Positions 44,410 through 52,996 are shown, counted from the stretch's first letter. The stretch: 64,000 nt of DNA from an uncultured archaeon (GCA_964610875.1 CAZSWP010000004.1:1-64000), one strand, 5' to 3'. The notes: generated from the sequence alone by a model not told the origin. Translations and numbers: made by a program.

Positions 44410-45232
44410 TAATGTACGTTTCAATGGTCCCGATTTTTTTATCACTCCTTTTAGTAAATCAACATGTAATGTGGTTGGTACGATAGGTATCTCTCCTTTG
44501 TTTAAACAGTGACCAATTAATGCCTGTAGTCACAAGTGCGCAATTGACACGACAACTTGGCGCAATTGCTGGTGCCTTTCCTTTTCGTTTCTTCTGCTGT
44601 GCAAGCTGAATATCAATTCCTTCAGGTTTGAATCCCATAAACATCATGCCAAATTTCAGAATGAAATTATGCCATTCTGGAGTATCTCTTTCAGCAATCT
44701 CACCAAAGAACTCTGTGAATGAAGGACTTTTCATTGGGTCGAATACAGCAAGTCCTGCACCAAAACCAATAACGGGACTTGAAAAGACGGGAATATTTTC
44801 CTCTCTGACAATATCAAACATTGCTTTTCTCTCTTGCATCACTGAAATGTCAATACCATCAACAATAACATCTGCATCCCTTACGAAGCGCTCAACATTG
44901 TCCATGGTGACACCGTCTGGAAAAACTTCAACCACTGCAATTGGATCAATCTTCAGAACCTCTTCTGCACTAACTCGTGCTTTGTTTCGACCAATGCTCT
45001 CTATATTTGCTCCAAGCTGTCTATTGAAGTTAGTCGCCTCAAAGATAGCTAGATCGCCAATTCTGAATTTTCAAAATCCGAGTTGAGCAAGTGTGAAGAT
45101 GATGTCGGAGTTACCACCGACACCAGCTTGTGCGACAACCGCATGTCTAATCCAATCCTGCTCTTCTGGTGTTATTATCCTTGTATTCCTGTCAACAGTT
45201 TCTTCGTAGCTTGGAATCTGTTTTACATCCAC
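44410..45232 (-). pseudogene. ThiF/MoeB-family adenylyltransferase, inactivated
   Basis: 'AGVGG', 'FEATNFNRQ', 'IGRNKA', 'DVIVDGID'; in-frame TGA at 45071-73; 3' frameshift leaves 'GEIPIVPTTLHVDL' in another frame. Confidence 0.85.
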
Positions 45233-45277: not shown

Positions 45278-46816
45278 TTACATAGCTTCACAGGTAGCAA
45301 GAACTCTATCATCAGTTGTCAATGGAACTGGCTTGATTTGCACATGATGCTCCTTAATCCTATCCTCAAACACTGAAGACTGCATCCTGTAGATTCTAGT
45401 GGCTCCGAGTGCACCTGTTTCTCTTACAATCTTGAACTCCATATTGACGCTCTTAAGATAGTCTTCAAATGACCGTACAAAATCTACTGGGTCTACTTCA
45501 GAAGAGAATAGAGCTGCAATCACATAATAGGGTAGTCCATCTCGAACCACTCCCACCACAGTGAAGTCTGTCACTTCTGTATCTGTCTTCATACATGCTG
45601 TCTTCATTGCGTTTGATACATGTGCCTCAGTCAGTTTCTCACCTGATAGATTTATGACTCGTCCCTTTCGTGAAACACTTGTTATCGTGTAGGGGTCTGT
45701 AGAACTGAAAGTAACCATGTCGCCAATTCGGTATCTGTAGAATCCTTGGTCATTAGTCACTACTATCTCATAACGACCGTTCATCTTCACTTCAGATAGT
45801 GGAATGACTTCTGGGTTAGGGATACCTACTTGGGATTCCGGAATGAACTCAAAGTAGTTCAAATTCGTAGCAAGCTGCATCCCATTTCCCGATAGCAACT
45901 GATGAGCCATGAATCCCTCACTAGCTCCATAGAATTCCCAAATTGTTACGTTTGGAAATGTTTGCTCTATCCAGGTCCTATAGGGATCTGTATCGATACC
46001 TGAAGCAAGGAATAATCTCATATCAGGACAGAGTTCCGCAACATCGAGTCTGTCATCATAGAGAGCATCTCTTATTTTAGCCTCATATTTCGTTCCTTTG
46101 AACTCGTCAAGTAGTGCTGGTCCGTAATGTTCCTGCAAACGACGAATGAGGGCAAGGTTCAATGTAGTGATACCTTGTAGTGCAGTCACATCATGAGTAG
46201 CAATGACCTTGGCATATTCCCACATCTTCTCATCCATGTCTTGTATGTCGAATACTTCTTGACCTGGTTTTATTAAACGCTGGAATATTTTGTTCTGATG
46301 TTTTGCATATACTCCTGTGGCATATCCTACAGGAACTCCGTTGATCTCATCAATCATTGCAGGAGCTCCGAAAGTAACCAGAGGTCCATCAACAAGTTTG
46401 GAGTTCTCTGGATCCTGTGCTAGGAATCCCATCCATCCAAGCATGCTGCCTTTGGCGACTTGTTTCAGTCCGTGGTCAGTTATCGGTAACTGCTTTGGAA
46501 GACCAGTCGTACCAGAGGTCTGAAGATACCAGACTACTGGGTCTGCTGTTAATATCTGCCCTGTAGGATTCTCATAGACCATCTTGAGATAACGAGCCAT
46601 GCTCTTTGAGTCCATCAGGGGAACTCTATTTCTATACTCGTCAGGCGAAGCAATATCTCCAAAACAAAGTTTCTTTCCAATCACAGTATCCTGATGACGG
46701 GTAAGGATATGTTCTAGCTTCTCCTCCATCATCGTGATTGGATGGTTGAGGACTTGCTCAATCAACTTCTGTTTTCTCTTCGCCACGACTCCGATTAAGC
46801 GTCGCATTATTGACAT
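45278..46816 (-). CDS. GH3-family acyl-acid amido synthetase
   Basis: 'TSGTTG.PK', 'YGASEG', 'YFEFIP', 'YRYRIGD', 'GEK'; ATG at 46816 after GGGGTGG. Confidence 0.9.
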   Translation of the reverse strand: MSIMRRLIGVVAKRKQKLIEQVLNHPITMMEEKLEHILTRHQDTVIGKKLCFGDIASPDEYRNRVPLMDSKSMARYLKMVYENPTGQILTADPVVWYLQTSGTTGLPKQLPITDHGLKQVAKGSMLGWMGFLAQDPENSKLVDGPLVTFGAPAMIDEINGVPVGYATGVYAKHQNKIFQRLIKPGQEVFDIQDMDEKMWEYAKVIATHDVTALQGITTLNLALIRRLQEHYGPALLDEFKGTKYEAKIRDALYDDRLDVAELCPDMRLFLASGIDTDPYRTWIEQTFPNVTIWEFYGASEGFMAHQLLSGNGMQLATNLNYFEFIPESQVGIPNPEVIPLSEVKMNGRYEIVVTNDQGFYRYRIGDMVTFSSTDPYTITSVSRKGRVINLSGEKLTEAHVSNAMKTACMKTDTEVTDFTVVGVVRDGLPYYVIAALFSSEVDPVDFVRSFEDYLKSVNMEFKIVRETGALGATRIYRMQSSVFEDRIKEHHVQIKPVPLTTDDRVLATCEAM

Positions 46817-46961
46817 CTTTTCCACCCCGTTCGACGCGCGCTGGTTCCAACTCCGCGCCAAACTCTGCTGTCAAATATATGATTTAATTTTACTAAAATG
46901 TACTACTGAAAGCTACATTGGGGTATTATAAAGTCTGGATAATACTTTTGAGATATGATTA

Positions 46962-47058
46962 CAACTGCTACGCAAAACGTATGGTAAATAGAATTATATG
47001 AGCGAATTCGAACACTCATAATGCTCTATTTTCATTCCATTTGCACAGCCGTAACACC
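46962..47058 (-). repeat. Inverted repeat copy A (97-bp hairpin element)
   Basis: Reverse complement matches 50155-50251 at 94/97; weaker ungapped similarity extends to about 46922. Confidence 0.95.
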
Positions 47059-47110
47059 ATTTCGGTCTTTTTTGGGTTTTTCTTTAAAAACCCTGAGATA
47101 ATTCATTCTG

Positions 47111-48595
47111 TCAATTCTTCCAAAAATTGAATAATCCTGTGATTCTTTTTCTCACTCTCTGCTCTATCAACCAGGTTTCTCTAAGCTCAAGGTCGAGCTG
47201 GGAGAGAAATCCTCTGAGGTAGGCTGGTACCAATTGTCTATGATCTGCTGGAAGTCCGAGAAAGAGAATGAGGGTTTCTGAAGACTCTGAGAGATATGAC
47301 TCGACCCAGGGAACACCTCTCTCTAGGGAATTTCGCAGTAGTCGTAATGTTTTTGGTTCTCCAGTGATATTCAAATAGACATGAGCTGAAAGACCTGTTA
47401 ATTCAAAATGTGGTAGATGAACAAGTTGCATGACTTGCTTCTTATCAAGTGATGTAAGGATATCTCTAATCTCAGAAGGTTGAAGACCAAAGCCATTAAG
47501 AATTGCATTTCTAGTAGACATAAGACCTAATCCTGCCCATCCTACAGAGAGAGCTAAGTTCTCCTCATTTGATAGTTCAGCTGTTTTTTTCACATCATCG
47601 ATTCTCTCTTCGAATAATATCAGGTCTTGCTCATTGCTCTCGTTGTCTTGAAGACTCACATTTACTCTCCAGTATGGTCGAACATACATATCAGTCCGCA
47701 AAGACATTCGATACTCTGATATTTTGTGGATATGATTTCCCTTCAATGTCTTCTTTGAAATTGCTAAGGATATTGGTTTGTGATTGTCAGATGTGTAGGA
47801 GTCAACTATACTAGCAGCATTCTCACTTTGGACAATGTACTTGTGAAATCCCAGTCTGTCTGAGAGGGGCCACATAATTTGTGATAGTGAGGTTTCTGCG
47901 ACCGTACGAAAATAATCTACTTCTTGTTTTGAAAGACTTAGTCTGTCACGAAGCCTCCCGATTCGCATGATGGTTGTGCTTGCTCGTTCATTGAGATAGT
48001 GTAATAGTACATTCAGACGTGCTGAGTTCAGCACATTGATGGTGACTGAAATATATCTGGATATTTCTGAGTAGAGTTCACCTTGATCCTCTCTGTCCCA
48101 TTCAGTTAATACAGTAGATAGAATATCAAGCCACCAGGGTTTGGTATTGCATTCCTCTGCAATCATTGCTAAGCGCAGCAGATTGATTGATTCAATGGGT
48201 AATCCTTGGTTTCCATGAATATCATACGACCAAGGTACAACCGAAAAGTTTCCCTCAAGTATTCGGCAGAGAACATAGATTAAAGGACTCTTGACTCCGT
48301 TCTCTATTTCTGGGAGAAGGGAATCTACCTGCTCGAATAATGTTCGTACTTTTTTAGCTGGACTCGAATCATGTGGGATTGGTCCCAATATATTCTCAAT
48401 CTCCACCAATTTGAGAGGTTTATTTGATAATGGTGAAAAACCCGTCTGTTCTTCGAAAACCTCTGGGTTGAATGAATACTCTTCCGGACTAAGTGCTTTG
48501 GTTTTGACCTCCTCATCAGTTAGGTCTTTTCCAAGTTTTTCCCCTGCCCGTAGTCCCATTGTGCATTGCCCCAGCAATAATGTATTTTCACTCAC
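47111..48595 (-). CDS. Hypothetical protein with possible C-terminal Lrp/AsnC-like wHTH+RAM module
   Basis: 'FGLQPSEIRDILTSLDKKQVMQL...GLSAHVYLNITG'. Confidence 0.55.
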   Translation of the reverse strand: MSENTLLLGQCTMGLRAGEKLGKDLTDEEVKTKALSPEEYSFNPEVFEEQTGFSPLSNKPLKLVEIENILGPIPHDSSPAKKVRTLFEQVDSLLPEIENGVKSPLIYVLCRILEGNFSVVPWSYDIHGNQGLPIESINLLRLAMIAEECNTKPWWLDILSTVLTEWDREDQGELYSEISRYISVTINVLNSARLNVLLHYLNERASTTIMRIGRLRDRLSLSKQEVDYFRTVAETSLSQIMWPLSDRLGFHKYIVQSENAASIVDSYTSDNHKPISLAISKKTLKGNHIHKISEYRMSLRTDMYVRPYWRVNVSLQDNESNEQDLILFEERIDDVKKTAELSNEENLALSVGWAGLGLMSTRNAILNGFGLQPSEIRDILTSLDKKQVMQLVHLPHFELTGLSAHVYLNITGEPKTLRLLRNSLERGVPWVESYLSESSETLILFLGLPADHRQLVPAYLRGFLSQLDLELRETWLIEQRVRKRITGLFNFWKN

Positions 48596-48644
48596 TACTT
48601 ATTCCTAATAAGTTGGTAGCTCGGCAGATGTTGATAGTTGGTGT

Positions 48645-50099
48645 TTGAAGAAATACTTAGATGTTCCAAGTGCTACAAAATCGCTGAGCGACGTTATGAG
48701 AACGATTCGACTCCCTGCCACATTGAAGGATGGTGGTGTAGTCAAAATTACCATACCTGTTGAATCAGTTGATGGTGTAGAGATTGTTCGAATTACTGGT
48801 CATAGTGATATTCTAGAAGTGGATTTATTTCCTCTAAGGAAAACCAAGACATTAGGGTCTCTCAGCATCGAAAGAAATGAAAAGCTCAAAACTCTTGATA
48901 TCACTCCTCTCAGTATTCTCGCAAATTTGCAGCATCTAGCAATTAGCTGGAATCCATCGCTAAAAGAATTACACGTGGCTACAATTCCTCATTTAAGGCA
49001 ACTCACTGTTTACATGAATCGAAGTCTTCCAAGTCTGGATTTGTCCTTCTTGGAAGCAATGATTGATTTACATAGAATAGAAATATCCTATAATTCAACA
49101 CTACAGCATCTTAATCTGAGACCAGTACGGAAACTACTGGGATTGCAGCAACTTGTTATCTCAAATAATTGGAATCTTTCTGAACTTGATCTCTCTCCTC
49201 TCAGTGAACTGAAAAATCTCCATGAACTCGTCATCACTGGAAACAAACATCTTTCATCTCTTGATCTGAGTCCATTAGCTGGACTGGATGAATTACAGGT
49301 TTTCCAAGCATATGGAAATGACGGAATCAAAGAGCTAGACTTGAGTCCTCTCATCGGAATGGAATCTTTGCGAAAAGTAGATGTCACCTCCCGAACTTAT
49401 CGTAGATCAATACTAGAGTCTGAAACCATCAAGAAGGTGGCACCTCTAATTTTTAAACAGATTAATCAAAGCGACTTTCTACTCTCACTTGATCCTATCC
49501 AATCTTACTCTTACCTTAACCAATTGGTTCCTATCATTGAAGAATATGAATCACCATGGAAGCTGCATCATCTCACTCGGAGTCTATTGCTTCTTCTTGA
49601 TTTAGGATGGCTTGGATTTCTTGACATATCTTCAATTGTTCTATCTGATATTCTGAAATCGTATAAGAGAATGGACTTTGAAACCATTGCTCGTGAGAAA
49701 ATCATCAAACTCTATAAAGAACAGATTGAAGCATCGGGCGTTACTATCGGATTGGAGATGAATAAAGCTAAACAGGTAAGCTGGTTCGCTCTCAACGCCT
49801 CGCGAATTGTTGATTTGAGATGGGGTGAGGTAGAGGACCTCGACCTTTGTCAGGAGGGTGATGTGATTGATTTACAGCTGCTGCATCTGACAGCTTACGG
49901 TTATGAGATTTTGAAACACTTCAATCTTGGCATGACCTGCACAGTTAATGACTTCACTAAGGTAGAGAGTGCACTCAGGGATGTTGGATTATCAATTAGG
50001 CATCGTGTGAGTAAAGTGCCAGTACTCCCCCAAAAAATGTCTAAGAGTCTGTGCGAGTATATCCTTCATCTTGTGGATTATCGAAAAGAGAAAGCATAA
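48645..50099 (+). CDS. Leucine-rich repeat protein
   Basis: About 7 repeats of 'LxxLDLSPLxxLxxLxxLxIxxN'. Confidence 0.9.
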   Translation: MKKYLDVPSATKSLSDVMRTIRLPATLKDGGVVKITIPVESVDGVEIVRITGHSDILEVDLFPLRKTKTLGSLSIERNEKLKTLDITPLSILANLQHLAISWNPSLKELHVATIPHLRQLTVYMNRSLPSLDLSFLEAMIDLHRIEISYNSTLQHLNLRPVRKLLGLQQLVISNNWNLSELDLSPLSELKNLHELVITGNKHLSSLDLSPLAGLDELQVFQAYGNDGIKELDLSPLIGMESLRKVDVTSRTYRRSILESETIKKVAPLIFKQINQSDFLLSLDPIQSYSYLNQLVPIIEEYESPWKLHHLTRSLLLLLDLGWLGFLDISSIVLSDILKSYKRMDFETIAREKIIKLYKEQIEASGVTIGLEMNKAKQVSWFALNASRIVDLRWGEVEDLDLCQEGDVIDLQLLHLTAYGYEILKHFNLGMTCTVNDFTKVESALRDVGLSIRHRVSKVPVLPQKMSKSLCEYILHLVDYRKEKA

Positions 50100-50154
50100 T
50101 GGATTTTTATGGATTAATGAAAAGTTCTTGAAAATTTCCAATTTCATGTCTTTA

Positions 50155-50251
50155 GGTGTTACGGCTGTGCAAATGGAATGAAAATAGAGCATTATGAATG
50201 TTCAATTTCGCTCATATAATTCTATTTACCATACGTTTTGCGTAGCAGTTG
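50155..50251 (+). repeat. Inverted repeat copy B (97-bp hairpin element)
   Basis: GGTGTTACGGCTGTGCAAATGG...CGTTTTGCGTAGCAGTTG; similarity decays by about 50291. Confidence 0.95.
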
Positions 50252-50354
50252 CATTCATATCCCAAATTAATCATCTGGGCAATATTATACCGTAGGCATG
50301 TTCTTCCATAAGTTAGTATATCCTTTATTCATACATTTTTACTCGTGAGCAAAG

Positions 50355-51062
50355 ATGTCAACGGGGATACAGTCTCTCAGACTGGTATTCCAAGAGAGTC
50401 AGTCAGACGAGGCACCTGAATGGACTGATGTGACTCTCAGTCTTCAGACGATGTATGAAGACAGGAATATCCACATTGAGAGAGCTAGACTGAACCAAGA
50501 TGGATATCTCTATCTTGTTGTTGGACTTCGGAGTCATATACTGTCTCCATTTCCACGAGTGAAGAAAGTGAAGACTGGCAGATTCATGCCATGTGATATG
50601 ATTGGACTTGTTCCACTGGTCTCACTCCTAGTGGGCCGTGAGAACAAGGGTGTCGAGCTTGGAGCGATTACTACAGAGAAGTGCACGCAGATAGTAATGG
50701 GATTTCAAGCTGAGAATACCAAGACCCTTGCCAGAGATGTATACGATTTCATCACAACGTGGAAGAAATGGTCAAGCGTTCTAGAGAACGTAGTGAAGAA
50801 AGACTATCCGATAGATTTCGATGTTCTTGAGTTTCTGTCAGAAGAGAGCGGTTATGTCGGTTCAAACTGGCAAGACCGAATCAAGGACAGAGACCTTCCA
50901 TTATCCATTATCGTGAGAGCATGTAGATCACTCCTCCAGTCCGTACTGACTACAAAACAACTGAGTCATCCATTGCTCCATGAGATCATGACATGGCTTG
51001 ATGGTCTTCGACCACAGTTGGAGATTCATGCCACGGCACAGGAGGTGCTTGCTGAAGTATGA
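50355..51062 (+). CDS. Hypothetical protein, first gene of the recombination operon
   Basis: 235-aa ORF; ATGA overlap with the next gene. Confidence 0.7.
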   Translation: MSTGIQSLRLVFQESQSDEAPEWTDVTLSLQTMYEDRNIHIERARLNQDGYLYLVVGLRSHILSPFPRVKKVKTGRFMPCDMIGLVPLVSLLVGRENKGVELGAITTEKCTQIVMGFQAENTKTLARDVYDFITTWKKWSSVLENVVKKDYPIDFDVLEFLSEESGYVGSNWQDRIKDRDLPLSIIVRACRSLLQSVLTTKQLSHPLLHEIMTWLDGLRPQLEIHATAQEVLAEV

Positions 51063-51517
51063 TGACCTACAATGACGAGATGATGCTGCGTTTCACGCCA
51101 TCGTGGTATCAGTCTATCAATGAGTCTTGGTTAGCCGGAGCAAATGACGCACTCGAGAGTCTTCCTCTTAGCAAGACCAAACAGAACGATTACGAATGGC
51201 AGGAATTCATTGGAGAGATTCTAGTCAAATCTCTGGAATACAATCTTCCTGCTATTGCTACAATGACACATGATGACGGACCTAATTCTCTGCTGGATAG
51301 ACTAGGTGGCCATGTCAGTATTGCTGGTAGAGTCACAGAAGACGGTCTGCGATTTAGATTCAGTGAGTCCAGTCAGGTCTTACTCTCACTGGTCTCAGGT
51401 TATGGTTTTGAAGACGAGGATGATTTTGTTGTTGCTGTAGAATTCTTAGATTGTTTTCTCTGTATGTTCCCAGTACGAGGTCCATTAGAACAAGAATTGG
51501 AGTTGATTTTGAAATGA
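51059..51517 (+). CDS. Hypothetical acidic protein
   Basis: GGAGG RBS; overlaps both neighbours. Confidence 0.7.
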   Translation: MMTYNDEMMLRFTPSWYQSINESWLAGANDALESLPLSKTKQNDYEWQEFIGEILVKSLEYNLPAIATMTHDDGPNSLLDRLGGHVSIAGRVTEDGLRFRFSESSQVLLSLVSGYGFEDEDDFVVAVEFLDCFLCMFPVRGPLEQELELILK

Positions 51518-52572
51518 TTGAACTAGAAGAAGTACCGGGCGTAGGTCCAGCCGCTGCAAAGAAACTCAAAGGGGTGTTCATCACAACTGCCGAGCTATTA
51601 GCTGTGCAGAACCCAAATGAACTACAGAGTCGGACCAAGTTAGGTGAGGGAACCTGTAAGAAGTTAGTCCGTGCTGCAAGGGACCTCGTTGGTGGATTTG
51701 GTATCATGAGTGGTATTGAGGTTGAACAAGAAATGGCAGCAAAGATCAGGTTGTTGTTTGGTTTGGAGGATCTTGACGAATCTATGTTAGGTGGAATTGA
51801 AGAAGGATCTCTCGTAGAACTATACGGCCCAGCTCGCGGAGGTAAGACACAATGGTGTTATCATCTTGCAGTACGTGCTCAGCTGCCTGTAGAAAGAGGT
51901 GGACTTGATGGTCGTGTAATCTGGTTGGATACGGAATCAAGTTTCAAACCATTGACATTTCGTGCTTGTGCACTCCGGTGGGGTTTAGACCCTGATATTG
52001 CGTTAGAGAACGTTGGTCGGGCGAATGTTATCCTCTCATCACAAATACCTGAGTTGTTCGAACGTATTCCCCAACTTTGTGCGGAAGAAAACTACAAACT
52101 CGTCGTGATTGATTCCTTTACAGGTCTTTTCAGAGCTGAGTATACTGGCCTTAATCAATTAAAAGAACGTCAACAGGAGATGAACGAACTACTCAATCAG
52201 ATGCGTCGACTTGGTACTGCGACTGGCACAATATTCGCATATACAAATCAAGCCACATCTACAATATCCACCTATGGAGGAATTTCTAATGCTCCAGTGG
52301 GGGGCCACATAATCTCACATGCATCAGACTACCGCTTCTACGTGAGAAGAAAGAAAGACGATGAACGTTATATCGAACTTCAGGACAACGCAGGTGTGCC
52401 GGAGTTTAAGAAAACTTGTAGGATAGGATGGGGTGGCTTCTACTCCGATGCGAAGACAAAGAAAAACGAAGAAGCTCGTGTTGTTGATGAATTAAAGAAA
52501 CAGGGCAAGATGAGTGCAGCTGAGGTAATCAAGGAGATGGCTAAAGTTCAAGCTGAGGAGGAGGAGGCATAG
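51514..52572 (+). CDS. radA: RadA/Rad51-family recombinase (divergent paralog)
   Basis: N-terminal HhH 'LEEVPGVGPAAAKKL', Walker A 'GPARGGKT', 'LDTESSF', 'VVIDS', 'FRAEY.G...L.ERQQ', 'GGH..SHAS'. Confidence 0.88.
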   Translation: MIELEEVPGVGPAAAKKLKGVFITTAELLAVQNPNELQSRTKLGEGTCKKLVRAARDLVGGFGIMSGIEVEQEMAAKIRLLFGLEDLDESMLGGIEEGSLVELYGPARGGKTQWCYHLAVRAQLPVERGGLDGRVIWLDTESSFKPLTFRACALRWGLDPDIALENVGRANVILSSQIPELFERIPQLCAEENYKLVVIDSFTGLFRAEYTGLNQLKERQQEMNELLNQMRRLGTATGTIFAYTNQATSTISTYGGISNAPVGGHIISHASDYRFYVRRKKDDERYIELQDNAGVPEFKKTCRIGWGGFYSDAKTKKNEEARVVDELKKQGKMSAAEVIKEMAKVQAEEEEA

Positions 52573-52573
52573 A

Positions 52574-52996
52574 ATGCAGTTTGTTGGGTATGAGTGTTTA
52601 AAATGCAAGAACCGCGGCTGCAAGAAAGAGGGCTCAAATATGAGGTGCAGTCTTTGTGGGACTAATCTTGATTCAGAAAATATCCTATTTCATGCTCCAG
52701 ATGAGAAAACTGCTAGGTCTATGCTAGTAAAGGCGATTGCGAAGTCAACTTCGAAATCACGTGGAAAGATTCAGAGAGGATTGGGGACCAGAAGACGTGT
52801 CCTAAATATTGTTCATTGTCTTGTTGATCTAAGAAGAGGACGTCCTGTTTCTAAATCGAAGATTCTTGAAGAATGTGTGGACGCAGGGATAGACAGTGAG
52901 AAGGCTCTCCATCATCTCTCTCTACTCCTCGATAGTGGTGAAGTTATCCACACATCTGAAGGATATCGCCCTGGTACGATTGAGGAGGTGCTATGA
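52574..52996 (+). CDS. Zn-ribbon + winged-helix protein (DUF1922/DUF5817-like)
   Basis: CxxC..CxxC; C-terminal 'EECVDAGIDSEKALHHLSLLLDSGEVI'. Confidence 0.7.
   Translation: MQFVGYECLKCKNRGCKKEGSNMRCSLCGTNLDSENILFHAPDEKTARSMLVKAIAKSTSKSRGKIQRGLGTRRRVLNIVHCLVDLRRGRPVSKSKILEECVDAGIDSEKALHHLSLLLDSGEVIHTSEGYRPGTIEEVL

What the first reader, a model, noticed from the sequence alone, without database searches (positions are those of the whole stretch)
46922..50291. Duplicated ~97-bp element in inverted orientation, heading both the GH3/ThiF unit and the RadA operon
Seen: 46962-47058 and 50155-50251 are reverse complements at 94/97. Identity ends sharply on the inner side (after GTAACACC) and fades over about 40 bp outward. 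Each copy lies 52-55 bp after the stop of one inner gene and points into a different transcription unit (about 146 bp to the GH3 ATG, about 104 bp to the 50355 ATG). Transposon TIRs would have a sharp outer edge, and no transposase is present. Inference: a shared regulatory module co-regulating both units, and/or recombination arms allowing the 3.1-kb inner segment to invert.
Basis: partly seen in the sequence, partly recalled or inferred. Interest (0 to 1): 0.8.

Follow-up and report, generated by a model that had tools for sequence, protein, structure and literature searches.

The report
Shared twin-box upstream module, Asgard regulon
The inverted repeat is real. It is two mirrored copies of a six-copy, about 92-base control module that sits in front of a conserved set of DNA-recombination, membrane-ATPase and surface-protein operons in this Thorarchaeota (Asgard) genome, and relatives carry their own species-specific versions at the same gene positions.

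Summary
Observation confirmed. Window 46962-47058 and 50155-50251 are reverse complements at 94/97, 27/40 over the next 40 nt outward, and at chance level inward.

The pair is not a transposon. It belongs to a six-copy family in this genome. All copies share an invariant 5' box (GTGTTACGGCTGTGCAAATG) and 3' box (ACGTTTTGCGTAGCA) in an indel-free 92-nt frame. The interiors are almost unrelated (36-49% identity). Every copy points into a downstream gene.

In 11 of 19 related genomes, GH3 and the first gene of the RadA-paralog cluster are direct divergent neighbours. The 3.1-kb inner segment is therefore an insertion specific to this genome, placed between two mirrored modules.

Several relatives (at least five other genera) carry their own, differently sequenced module. 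It lies upstream of the same orthologous units: GH3, the cluster head, the 198-aa plus giant surface protein unit, and a membrane HerA-like ATPase.

No RNA structure is supported: there is no covariation, and no shared fold here or in a relative.

Best reading (about 0.6): a regulon-defining, protein-bound promoter-region DNA module that evolves in concert within each genome. The binding factor and the transcription start are unknown, and inversion of the inner segment is untested.

First-reader notes on this window (e1-5672697, e1-5672698) had flagged the same element.

The parts
46966..47057 (-). Copy A of the 92-nt twin-box module, reading towards GH3
   Evidence: Row A of the gapless alignment A1.
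47037..47057 (-). Copy A, 5' box (GTGTTACGGCTGTGCAAATGG)
   Evidence: The 20-mer GTGTTACGGCTGTGCAAATG is identical in copies A, B, C and E; D has 1 mismatch and F has 5.
47015..47032 (-). Copy A, semi-conserved centre (AAAATAGAGC-ATTATGA), BRE/TATA-like
   Evidence: It resembles this genome's tRNA promoters. With the PWM, column 46/47 is the top hit in D and E, second in B and third in A. This is suggestive only.
46966..46981 (-). Copy A, 3' box (TACGTTTTGCGTAGCA; palindrome TACG-N5-CGTA)
   Evidence: ACGTTTTGCGTAGC is exact in all six copies and has no other exact copy in the genome.
46922..46965 (-). Copy A, 3' tail with fading similarity (also shared with copy C)
   Evidence: 27/40 identity between A and B over 46922-46961. 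The alignment tail GTTKYAWTMATATCYC appears.
50156..50247 (+). Copy B of the 92-nt twin-box module, reading towards the RadA-paralog cluster
50156..50176 (+). Copy B, 5' box
50181..50198 (+). Copy B, semi-conserved BRE/TATA-like centre
   Evidence: A similar AAATAGAGGATTATG lies upstream of the orthologue in genome G032.
50232..50247 (+). Copy B, 3' box
50248..50291 (+). Copy B, 3' tail with fading similarity
47059..50154 (.). 3.1-kb inner segment, read as an insertion specific to this genome between the two mirrored modules
   Evidence: In 11 of 19 relatives GH3 lies directly divergent from the P0004 orthologue, 575-752 nt apart hit-to-hit in the ten measured. No P0001 or P0002 homologue lies between them.
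47111..48595 (-). P0001, 494-aa orphan ORF in the inner segment
   Evidence: No Pfam, NCBIfam or PADLOC hit. No homologue at E<=1e-5 among 5.8 billion protein clusters.
48645..50099 (+). P0002, 484-aa leucine-rich-repeat protein in the inner segment
   Evidence: LRR_4 and LRR_EndoS Pfam hits. Distant paralogues on contigs C58, C66 and C34.
45278..46861 (-). GH3-family gene served by copy A (likely ATG at 46816)
   Evidence: GH3 N-terminal, middle and C-terminal domains. Orthologues at 45-57% identity lie next to the cluster head in relatives.
50355..51062 (+). P0004, 235-aa first gene of the RadA-paralog cluster, served by copy B
   Evidence: Found in 30 of 40 family genomes. AF2 model has pLDDT 85.7 and no PDB fold match.
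51451..52572 (+). RadA paralog
   Evidence: Rad51 domain at 181 bits. The main RadA is elsewhere, on C36, at 318 bits.
52574..52996 (+). Zn-ribbon plus winged-helix protein, a candidate (untested) regulator encoded in the cluster
   Evidence: Found in 31 of 40 relatives, about 2.2 kb downstream of the P0004 orthologue in each genome whose coordinates I compared. CxxC...CxxC plus a winged-helix pattern. Weak HTH_20 and MCM_C hits. The AF2 winged-helix domain matches IclR, LexA and MarR winged-helix domains at Foldseek probability 0.84-0.99 but with E-values of only 0.02-0.13.

Best explanation
The two arms are mirrored copies of a promoter-region control module, about 92 bp long. It consists of an invariant 5' box, a BRE/TATA-like centre, a free spacer of fixed length and an invariant, partly palindromic 3' box.

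The module marks the operons of one regulon: GH3, the RadA-paralog recombination cluster, the 198-aa membrane protein plus giant surface protein, and a membrane HerA/VirB4-like ATPase. In this genome it also precedes two loci that begin with orphan ORFs. One of these lies upstream of the OB-fold/PCNA/primase/GINS operon.

The proposed mechanism is inferred, not shown. A dedicated sequence-specific DNA-binding protein contacts both boxes. The box centres lie about 74 bp apart, roughly seven helical turns, so both face the same side of the helix. Bound there, the protein would clamp or recruit the basal transcription machinery between or next to the boxes, switching all units together.

GH3 and the cluster head are ancestral divergent neighbours, each with its own outward-facing copy. 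In this genome a 3.1-kb two-gene segment was inserted between the copies, which makes them look like terminal inverted repeats. Within each genome the copies stay alike while the sequence turns over between species. This points to gene conversion and/or co-evolution with a fast-evolving regulator.
For: Shown:
1. Six copies exist in the genome. They align without a single gap over 117 columns. The boxes are invariant while interiors are 36-49% identical. The distance from box to box is exactly 92 nt in copies A-E.
2. All copies lie in 5' regions and read towards a downstream gene. Four lie in divergent intergenic regions, so the element is not the 3' end of the inner genes.
3. GH3 is directly divergent from the P0004 orthologue in 11 of 19 relatives.
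4. Relatives have mirrored arms in that spacer: G019 30 nt at 83%, G003 28 nt at 89%, about 280 nt apart.
5. Further copies of each genome's own module lie before orthologues of the 198-aa/giant gene (G019, G003) and of the HerA-like gene (G003).
6. Similarity between the P0004 upstream and the 198-aa-gene upstream within one genome exceeds the 95th percentile of cross-genome controls in 7 of 17 genomes. The same holds for the HerA-like upstream in 3 of 10 comparisons (nine genomes).
7. G019 has exactly three copies, each spanning 84 nt. Four congeners have none with that sequence.
8. No RNA structure is supported. Covariation is 0.111 against 0.101 in shuffles (173/500). Copies C and E fold no better than shuffled sequence. 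G019's copies have no consensus fold.
9. The centre resembles this genome's tRNA promoters and is the top PWM hit in D and E.
10. A Zn-ribbon/winged-helix protein is encoded in the cluster in most relatives.
Against: - No transcription start, expression or binding data exist.
- The TATA-like centre scores only modestly (3.7-6.3 bits) and is absent in copies C and F. In relatives the best promoter-like position is not at a consistent place within the module. So whether the boxes lie upstream of, around or inside the transcript is open.
- Boxes of 15-20 invariant bases are longer and more uniform than typical transcription-factor sites.
- The two boxes can pair with each other (10 bp with two G-U pairs on the sense strand only), which an RNA reading explains more naturally.
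- Many relatives (10 of 17) show no detectable shared module with this crude alignment test.
- Copies E and F precede orphan ORFs. No counterpart was found before the PCNA operon of G003 or G019, so the link to the replisome operon is uncertain.
Confidence: 0.6

Rival explanations
1. RNA-level element. The module is transcribed as a 5' leader or a small RNA whose ends pair (GCUGUGCAAA with UUUGCGUAGC) around a hairpin. It acts on mRNA stability or translation, or as a binding platform for an RNA-binding protein or a trans-acting RNA.
For: - The terminal 10-bp helix has two G-U pairs that exist only on the strand co-directional with the downstream genes.
- Copies A and B fold far better than shuffles (z = -3.9 and -2.1; D is -1.7).
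- Copy A has a TATA-like TTTTTAAA about 30 nt upstream of the 5' box.
- Perfect invariance of 15-20-nt boxes is typical of recognition by base pairing.
- An earlier first-reader note (e1-5672697) proposed this reading.
Against: - The terminal helix never varies, so it is uninformative.
- Interior pairs are broken in C, E and F. The covariation score equals shuffled and slid controls.
- C and E have z near 0.
- The one A/B difference that falls in the stem breaks a pair rather than compensating.
- G019's three copies give no consensus structure.
- No Rfam family matches at gathering score.
- No consistent promoter lies upstream of the 5' box in B-F.
- Interiors have no guide-like matches elsewhere in the genome.
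Confidence: 0.17
2. Mobile or recombinogenic DNA. The family is a MITE-like or portable promoter element, or the A/B pair serves as arms for inversion of the 3.1-kb segment (or the boxes flank an invertible mini-promoter).
For: - The A/B pair is inverted, 97% identical in the core, with a 45-nt perfect run.
- The box ends are weak inverted repeats of each other (TGYTACG ... GCAAA).
- Copies E and F appear lineage-specific and sit before orphan ORFs, as if the element had spread.
- The inner segment is an insertion carrying an orphan gene.
Against: - No target-site duplication appears at any copy.
- No transposase, integrase or invertase domain was found in the flanking genes tested.
- No copy lies inside a gene or in a convergent spacer.
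- There are only six copies, and degenerate matches occur at control level.
- Copies occupy the same orthologous promoters in other genera.
- The sharp inner edge is the module edge in all copies, not a junction.
- Box-to-box inverted symmetry is not seen in G019 by eye; I ran no formal test.
- Inversion of the inner segment would not rewire the outer genes.
Confidence: 0.12
3. DNA-processing sites used by the cluster's own machinery (oriT-, att- or origin-recognition-box-like sites), not transcription signals.
For: - The boxes are long, species-specific and invariant, as expected for sites that co-evolve with a dedicated DNA enzyme.
- Copies B and C are direct repeats bracketing the roughly 18-kb recombination cluster, with the same layout in G019 and G003.
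- Mirrored arms around a spacer resemble origin or oriT layouts.
Against: - Every copy sits at a fixed short distance before a gene start and is oriented towards it.
- Copies occur at four to six separate operon heads, including on other contigs.
- No relaxase, integrase or Orc1/Cdc6 gene was found among the flanking genes scanned against Pfam.
Confidence: 0.06

Closest known systems
DNA-damage-responsive element (DDRE, ANTTTC within a 20-bp consensus) of the Sulfolobales Orc1-2 regulon, in the ups, ced and tfb3 promoters (PMC6061795)
   Same: It is a short shared promoter element that ties together operons for a surface structure, a membrane DNA-translocation system (Ced includes a HerA/VirB4-type ATPase) and DNA-transaction genes in an archaeon. 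It lies within about 100 bp upstream of start codons.
   Different: - There is no sequence relation.
- This module is about 92 bp with two invariant 15-20-nt boxes in a fixed frame, not a degenerate hexamer.
- The regulator is unknown, and no Orc1-2 link was tested.
- The sequence is species-specific and turns over in concert.
- Induction by DNA damage is pure analogy.
Bacterial regulon operators with paired boxes at fixed phasing (e.g. NrdR boxes, LexA SOS boxes); own knowledge
   Same: Identical sites before several operons of one functional theme. Spacing between boxes is constrained. The 3' box has palindromic character.
   Different: Those motifs are conserved across whole phyla and are 14-16 bp long. 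Here the boxes differ even between congeneric species and flank about 57 bp of free sequence.
Promoter-bearing miniature repeats such as Neisseria Correia elements; own knowledge
   Same: A roughly 100-150-bp repeat with conserved ends and a variable middle, found upstream of genes and able to supply promoter signals. It can look like inverted repeats.
   Different: Correia elements have clear TIRs and TA target duplications, occur in hundreds of copies at non-orthologous sites, and also insert between convergent genes. None of this is seen here.
E2F/DP sites (TTTSSCGC) of eukaryotic S-phase promoters. Asgard E2F homologues have been reported but have no known targets (PMC7617429)
   Same: The genome encodes an E2F_TDP-domain protein with an RRVYD motif. 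The 3' boxes here and in G019 and G022 contain TTT[GC]CG-like cores. One copy lies upstream of the PCNA/primase/GINS operon.
   Different: The box matches the E2F consensus at only 6 of 8 positions. G003 and G008 boxes lack the core. No binding or genomic linkage evidence exists. This is a lead, not a finding.

Membership tests
Regulon-defining promoter/operator module | Several copies, each upstream of and oriented towards a gene or operon | tested here: met
   6 of 6 copies qualify: 4 in divergent spacers and 2 between tandem genes, co-directional with them.
Regulon-defining promoter/operator module | The same orthologous operons carry the (diverged) element in related genomes | tested here: met
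   GH3 side: G019 and G003 clearly, others weaker. 198-aa/giant gene: 7 of 17 genomes above the cross-genome 95th percentile. HerA-like gene: 3 of 10 comparisons.
Regulon-defining promoter/operator module | Bound by a specific regulator; target genes co-expressed | not testable with these tools
   No expression or binding data are available. Candidates only: the Zn-ribbon/winged-helix protein at 52574-52996 and the E2F-like protein.
Regulon-defining promoter/operator module | Contains or abuts the core promoter (BRE/TATA at the right distance from the TSS) | tested here: inconclusive
   The tRNA-derived PWM puts the best hit at alignment column 46/47 in D and E, second in B and third in A, with none in C or F. 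The position is not consistent in relatives.
MITE / TIR transposon | Terminal inverted repeats with a sharp outer edge | tested here: not met
   For the A/B pair the sharp edge is the inner one. Within one module the ends share only TGYTACG plus an offset GCAAA.
MITE / TIR transposon | Target-site duplications flanking copies | tested here: not met
   No direct repeat flanks any of the six copies.
MITE / TIR transposon | Many copies at non-orthologous or random sites; a transposase partner | tested here: not met
   Six copies, all in 5' regions. Near-matches occur at control frequency. No transposase domain was found in the neighbours.
Structured non-coding RNA / cis-regulatory leader | Conserved secondary structure supported by covariation | tested here: not met
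   Covariation 0.111 against 0.101 shuffled (173/500), and slid controls are equal or higher. C and E have z near 0. G019's copies have no consensus fold.
Structured non-coding RNA / cis-regulatory leader | Match to a described RNA family | tested here: not met
   No Rfam 15 hit at gathering score in the 64-kb window. No tRNA or tmRNA.
Invertible DNA segment (recombination arms / inverton) | Both orientations present in reads; a nearby invertase | not testable with these tools
No recombinase domain was found in P0001, P0002 or the flanking genes.
E2F/DP binding site | TTTSSCGC core | tested here: not met
   The 3' box TTTTGCGT matches 6 of 8 positions. G022 has TTTCGCGT (7 of 8). G003 and G008 boxes lack it.

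The most novel reading that the evidence does not exclude
The twin-box module is the operator of an Asgard regulon for DNA damage response or DNA exchange. It would be a functional counterpart of the Sulfolobales Orc1-2/DDRE control of ups and ced. Its species-specific boxes would co-evolve with a regulator encoded in the cluster (the Zn-ribbon/winged-helix protein) or with the Asgard E2F-like factor. It would switch on, as one unit, a membrane HerA/VirB4-like ATPase, a giant surface protein, spare recombinases and a GH3 enzyme. In this species it would also have reached the PCNA/primase/GINS locus, coupling replication to that programme.
Probability: 0.2. Interest if true: 0.7.

Novelty: new variant of a known kind. 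Interest (0 to 1): 0.5.

Why it matters
I found no paper on transcription regulation in Asgard archaea (no cis-elements, no regulons) in the two literature searches I ran.

This module gives a sequence-defined, testable regulon. It ties the conserved Thorarchaeota 'membrane-linked recombination cluster' to three further units: GH3, the giant surface protein and a membrane HerA-like ATPase with an intact P-loop. That is independent, non-coding evidence that these genes work together. It also names the probable missing active ATPase partner.

The pattern of invariance within a genome but turnover between species, at fixed orthologous promoters, is an unusually clean case of concerted evolution of a cis-element. 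It offers a direct handle for finding the regulator, using a 92-bp bait with species-swap controls.

Tried and rejected
**RNA and coding readings**
- Rfam and ARAGORN on the window gave nothing.
- Small-ORF reading of the element: frames are not conserved between copies (inspection).
- Guide-RNA reading: interiors have only chance-level 13-16-nt matches elsewhere in the genome.

**Searches for the element elsewhere**
- BLAST in 60 relatives found none.
- An exact two-box pattern in 399 other Asgard genomes found none.
- The metagenome collection gave 3 hits that lack the rest of the element, about the number I expected by chance from a rough estimate.
- Viral contigs gave none.
- A family HMM against relatives' loci gave nothing significant. 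One borderline syntenic match appeared in G032 (E = 0.12).
- Degenerate box searches in the own genome stayed at control level beyond the six copies.

**Promoter and regulon tests**
- The first unsupervised motif run on tRNA upstream regions failed to converge and was replaced by hand-anchored sites.
- The TATA position was not reproducible in relatives.
- No module copy and no inverted repeat was found before the PCNA operon in G003, G019, G008 or G005.
- E2F-site reading: only a partial match.

**Proteins**
- P0004 as a regulator: a confident model but no DNA-binding or other known fold.
- P0001: no homologue and no domain.

**Tools**
- The bacterial promoter/terminator scan was uninformative.
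Full report
**1. Observation**

The inverted repeat is real. The repeat finder gives arms 46922-47058 and 50155-50291: 137 nt, 88% complementary, 3096 nt apart.

A direct count gives:
- 94/97 for 46962-47058 against 50155-50251, with differences at 47007, 47009 and 47015.
- 27/40 for the next 40 nt outward, then chance level (7/40).
- Chance level inward (9/30).
- A longest identical run of 45 nt.

The stated distances to the flanking stop and start codons are correct. Within the 3.75-Mb assembly the pair scores E = 5e-45.

**2. The element is a small family, not a pair**

The window is contig C4:1-64000 of a 124-contig assembly that is 95% complete. Earlier scan notes call it Thorarchaeota. 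I did not check the taxonomy independently.

BLAST, nhmmer and motif searches find six copies. They are given here on the strand that reads 5'-GTGTTACGG...GCGTAGCA-3':

| Copy | Location | Strand | Note |
|---|---|---|---|
| A | C4:46966-47057 | - | in window |
| B | C4:50156-50247 | + | in window |
| C | C4:68558-68649 | + | 4.6 kb beyond the window |
| D | C79:3178-3269 | + | |
| E | C16:46715-46806 | + | |
| F | C53:16605-16696 | + | degenerate 5' box |

All six align over 117 columns without a single gap (alignment A1).
- The 20-nt 5' box GTGTTACGGCTGTGCAAATG is identical in A, B, C and E. D has one mismatch.
- The 15-nt 3' box ACGTTTTGCGTAGCA is identical in all six. It has no other exact copy in the genome.
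- The 55-nt interiors are only 36-49% identical between distant copies, against 95% for A/B and 71% for A/D.

So the ends and the length are under selection and most of the middle is not. Degenerate searches find nothing beyond control frequency.

**3. Context**

Every copy lies in a 5' region and reads towards a gene.

| Copy | Downstream genes |
|---|---|
| A | GH3, then a ThiF fragment |
| B | P0004 (235 aa), a 152-aa ORF, a RadA paralog, a Zn-ribbon/winged-helix protein and the rest of the recombination cluster |
| C | a 198-aa membrane protein and a 2591-aa surface protein |
| D | a 1041-aa membrane-anchored HerA/VirB4-like ATPase with an intact GKT P-loop; divergent from a PLD/DrmC-like nuclease |
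| E | an orphan 110-aa ORF, then (675 nt from the module) an RPA3-like OB-fold gene, PCNA, PriS and Gins51 |
| F | an orphan 102-aa ORF, then a LAGLIDADG-like 348-aa protein |

PCNA and PriS at locus E are the only copies in the assembly. The window's RadA is a paralog of the main one on C36.

Copies C-F sit in divergent spacers. The element is therefore not a 3' feature of the inner genes.

**4. Comparative evidence (the decisive part)**

*The sequence itself is not found elsewhere.*
- 60 relatives by BLAST: none.
- 399 other Asgard genomes by pattern: none.
- Viral contigs: none.
- Metagenome contigs: three hits that lack the rest of the element, about the number I expected by chance from a rough estimate.

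*The layout is found elsewhere.*
- In 11 of 19 related genomes that have a P0004 orthologue, GH3 lies directly upstream and divergent. The gap is 575-752 nt hit-to-hit in the ten measured. No P0001 or P0002 homologue lies in between.
- The 3.1-kb inner segment is therefore an insertion specific to this genome. P0001 has no homologue at all.
- That ancestral spacer contains a mirrored pair of a genome-specific element in several relatives. G019 has 30-nt arms at 83%, extendable to a two-box module of about 105 nt. G003 has 28-nt arms at 89%. In both, the arms are about 280 nt apart. Weaker pairs occur in G005, G008 and G030.
- The same genome-specific element recurs before the orthologue of the 198-aa/giant gene in G019 and G003. 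It also recurs before a HerA-like orthologue in G003.

*A control-based test.* I compared the best local alignment between the P0004 upstream and the 198-aa-gene upstream of the same genome with all cross-genome pairs (95th percentile 14).
- Within-genome scores: 49 (this genome), 33, 24, 23.5, 22, 20 and 17.
- That is 7 of 17 genomes, covering six genera.
- For the HerA-like gene, 3 of 10 comparisons (nine genomes) score 33-59 against a cross-genome 95th percentile of 13.5.

*Turnover is fast.* G019 has exactly three copies of its own two-box pattern, each spanning exactly 84 nt. Four congeneric species have none. The modules in G019, G022 and G008 again show long conserved boxes separated by gapless, unconserved spacers.

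So the positions and the architecture are conserved. The sequence turns over quickly between species but stays uniform within a genome.

**5. DNA or RNA?**

On the sense strand the boxes can pair: GCUGUGCAAA with UUUGCGUAGC, with two G-U pairs. Copies A and B also form a long hairpin with z = -3.9 and -2.1.

Against an RNA structure:
- The terminal helix never varies, so it carries no information.
- Interior pairs fail in C, E and F.
- The covariation score is 0.111 against 0.101 in shuffles (173 of 500 shuffles reach it). Slid controls are equal or higher.
- C and E fold no better than shuffled sequence.
- The one A/B difference that falls in the stem breaks a pair.
- G019's three copies have no consensus fold at all.
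- No Rfam family matches.

I therefore favour recognition as double-stranded DNA. An RNA role for the boxes is not excluded.

**6. Promoter content**

Thirteen tRNA genes of this genome show a purine-rich stretch followed by [GC]TT[TA]A[TA]A, starting 28-41 nt (mostly 33-37) before the tRNA 5' end.

The module's semi-conserved centre resembles this: AAAATAGAGC-ATTATGA in A and B, GGGC-TTTATGA in D, AAAGCC-TTTATGA in E. With a PWM built from the tRNA sites, alignment column 46/47 is the best hit within about 350 nt in D and E. It is second in B, third in A, and absent in C and F.

If this is the TATA box, transcription would start near the semi-conserved TCTATTT at columns 76-82. The 5' box would then lie at about -65 to -45 and the palindromic 3' box (TACG-N5-CGTA) at about +9 to +24.

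This placement is an inference. The scores are modest, and in relatives the best promoter-like position is not consistent.

The box centres lie about 74 bp apart by my own estimate from alignments A1, both here and, roughly, in G019 and G008. That is about seven helical turns. In G003, by my count from the alignment, two copies differ by 10 nt in inter-box spacing (42 against 32). Both observations fit binding on one face of the DNA, but they are few.

**7. Who binds?**

This is unknown. Candidates found in passing:

(a) A 140-aa protein encoded in the cluster (window 52574-52996).
- It is present in 31 of 40 relatives, about 2.2 kb downstream of the P0004 orthologue in each genome whose coordinates I compared.
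- It has a CxxC...CxxC zinc ribbon and a C-terminal winged helix.
- The AF2 model has pLDDT 88. The winged-helix domain resembles those of IclR, LexA, MarR and KAT6A at Foldseek probability 0.84-0.99, but the E-values are only 0.02-0.13.
- Sources.

(b) An E2F_TDP-domain protein (185 aa) with an RRVYD motif and a coiled coil, at contig C5:73714-73902.
- Asgard E2F homologues are already reported, but I found no targets described for them in the review I read (PMC7617429).
- The 3' boxes contain TTT[GC]CG-like cores. These match the E2F consensus only partly and are absent in G003 and G008.

(c) The LAGLIDADG-like protein after copy F.

P0004 itself gives a confident model with no known fold. 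None of these candidates was tested for binding.

**8. Interpretation and rivals**

| Reading | Confidence |
|---|---|
| Regulon-defining promoter-region DNA module | about 0.6 |
| RNA leader or small RNA | 0.17 |
| Mobile or recombinogenic element, including inversion arms | 0.12 |
| DNA-processing site for the cluster's machinery | 0.06 |
| Remainder, including artefact | balance |

In the best reading, the A/B inverted repeat is the ancestral mirrored pair of the GH3 | cluster-head divergent promoters, pushed apart by a 3.1-kb insertion.

The inversion idea is untested. Even if inversion occurs, it would not change which outer gene each module faces.

**9. Comparison with known systems**

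The closest functional analogue is the DDRE/Orc1-2 regulon of Sulfolobales. It joins ups pili, the Ced DNA importer and tfb3 through a shared promoter motif (PMC6061795). The gene themes match: a surface structure, a membrane HerA/VirB4-type ATPase and DNA-transaction genes. There is no sequence relation, the architecture differs, and damage inducibility here is only an analogy.

The module fails the defining tests for a MITE (no target-site duplication, no sharp outer edge, no random sites). It also fails those for a structured RNA family (no covariation).

The two literature searches I ran for Asgard E2F targets and Asgard promoters returned no paper describing an Asgard cis-regulatory element.

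**10. Limits**

- No reads, expression data or binding data were available.
- Ten of 17 relatives show no shared module with my crude alignment test.
- The link of copies E and F to the PCNA operon and the LAGLIDADG-like gene is uncertain, because orphan ORFs intervene and no counterpart was found in G003 or G019.

Noticed in passing
Own genome contig C5:73714-73902 (-); L054:1144-1701 (-): A 185-aa protein has an E2F_TDP winged-helix domain (41.7 bits, above the Pfam cut-off) and the DP-type RRVYD motif, followed by a coiled coil. None of the 14 control genomes reached the cut-off. Asgard E2F homologues are already reported (PMC7617429), but I found no targets described in that review.
   Followed up: partly
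window 47111-48595 (-): P0001 is a 494-aa open frame with no Pfam, NCBIfam or PADLOC domain. It has no homologue at E<=1e-5 among 5.8 billion protein clusters. It sits in a 3.1-kb insertion specific to this genome, beside an LRR protein.
   Followed up: partly
Own genome contig C79:3306-6431 (+) (L012): This is a 1041-aa membrane-anchored HerA/VirB4-like ATPase with an intact GKT P-loop and weak CedD and mad8 hits. It shares the module with the cluster that, per an earlier unchecked note (e1-5672695), holds a P-loop-less VirB4-like protein, so it could be the active partner. The family is patchy across genera, has up to 6 copies per genome, and some copies carry in-frame stops. That pattern suggests accessory or mobile status.
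   Followed up: partly
Own genome contig C79:2071-3090 (-) (L012): A PLD-family nuclease-like protein (PLDc_2 plus Nudix_N; best PADLOC hits are DrmC) lies divergent from the HerA-like gene, 88 nt from the module's 5' box.
   Followed up: no
Own genome contig C53:17565-18611 (+) (L014:6566-7612): A 348-aa protein carries two LAGLIDADG-like motifs (LLGAICSDGYF and LQGVADADGSV), both keeping the acidic residue. It lies downstream of copy F. Its homologue in G003 lies divergent from the OB-fold/PCNA operon.
   Followed up: no
window 50355-51062 (+): P0004, the first gene of the RadA-paralog cluster, gives a confident AlphaFold model (pLDDT 85.7, pTM 0.85). It has no Foldseek match at E<=0.001 in the PDB and may be a new fold.
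   Followed up: partly
window 52574-52996 (+): A conserved family combining a Zn ribbon (CxxC...CxxC) and a winged helix is encoded about 2.2 kb into the cluster in most Thorarchaeota relatives searched. No Pfam family covers it.
   Followed up: partly
G003 loci L034 (about 1269-1350) and L060 (about 1511-1590): Two copies of G003's module keep the same two boxes (GGGTACAGATTATCACGGT and GGGGGCCTATGG) but differ by 10 nt in spacing (42 against 32). That is one helical turn.
   Followed up: no
window 44459-44935 (-): The ThiF-like frame downstream of GH3 is only 158 aa and matches just positions 92-173 of the 238-position ThiF profile.
   Followed up: no
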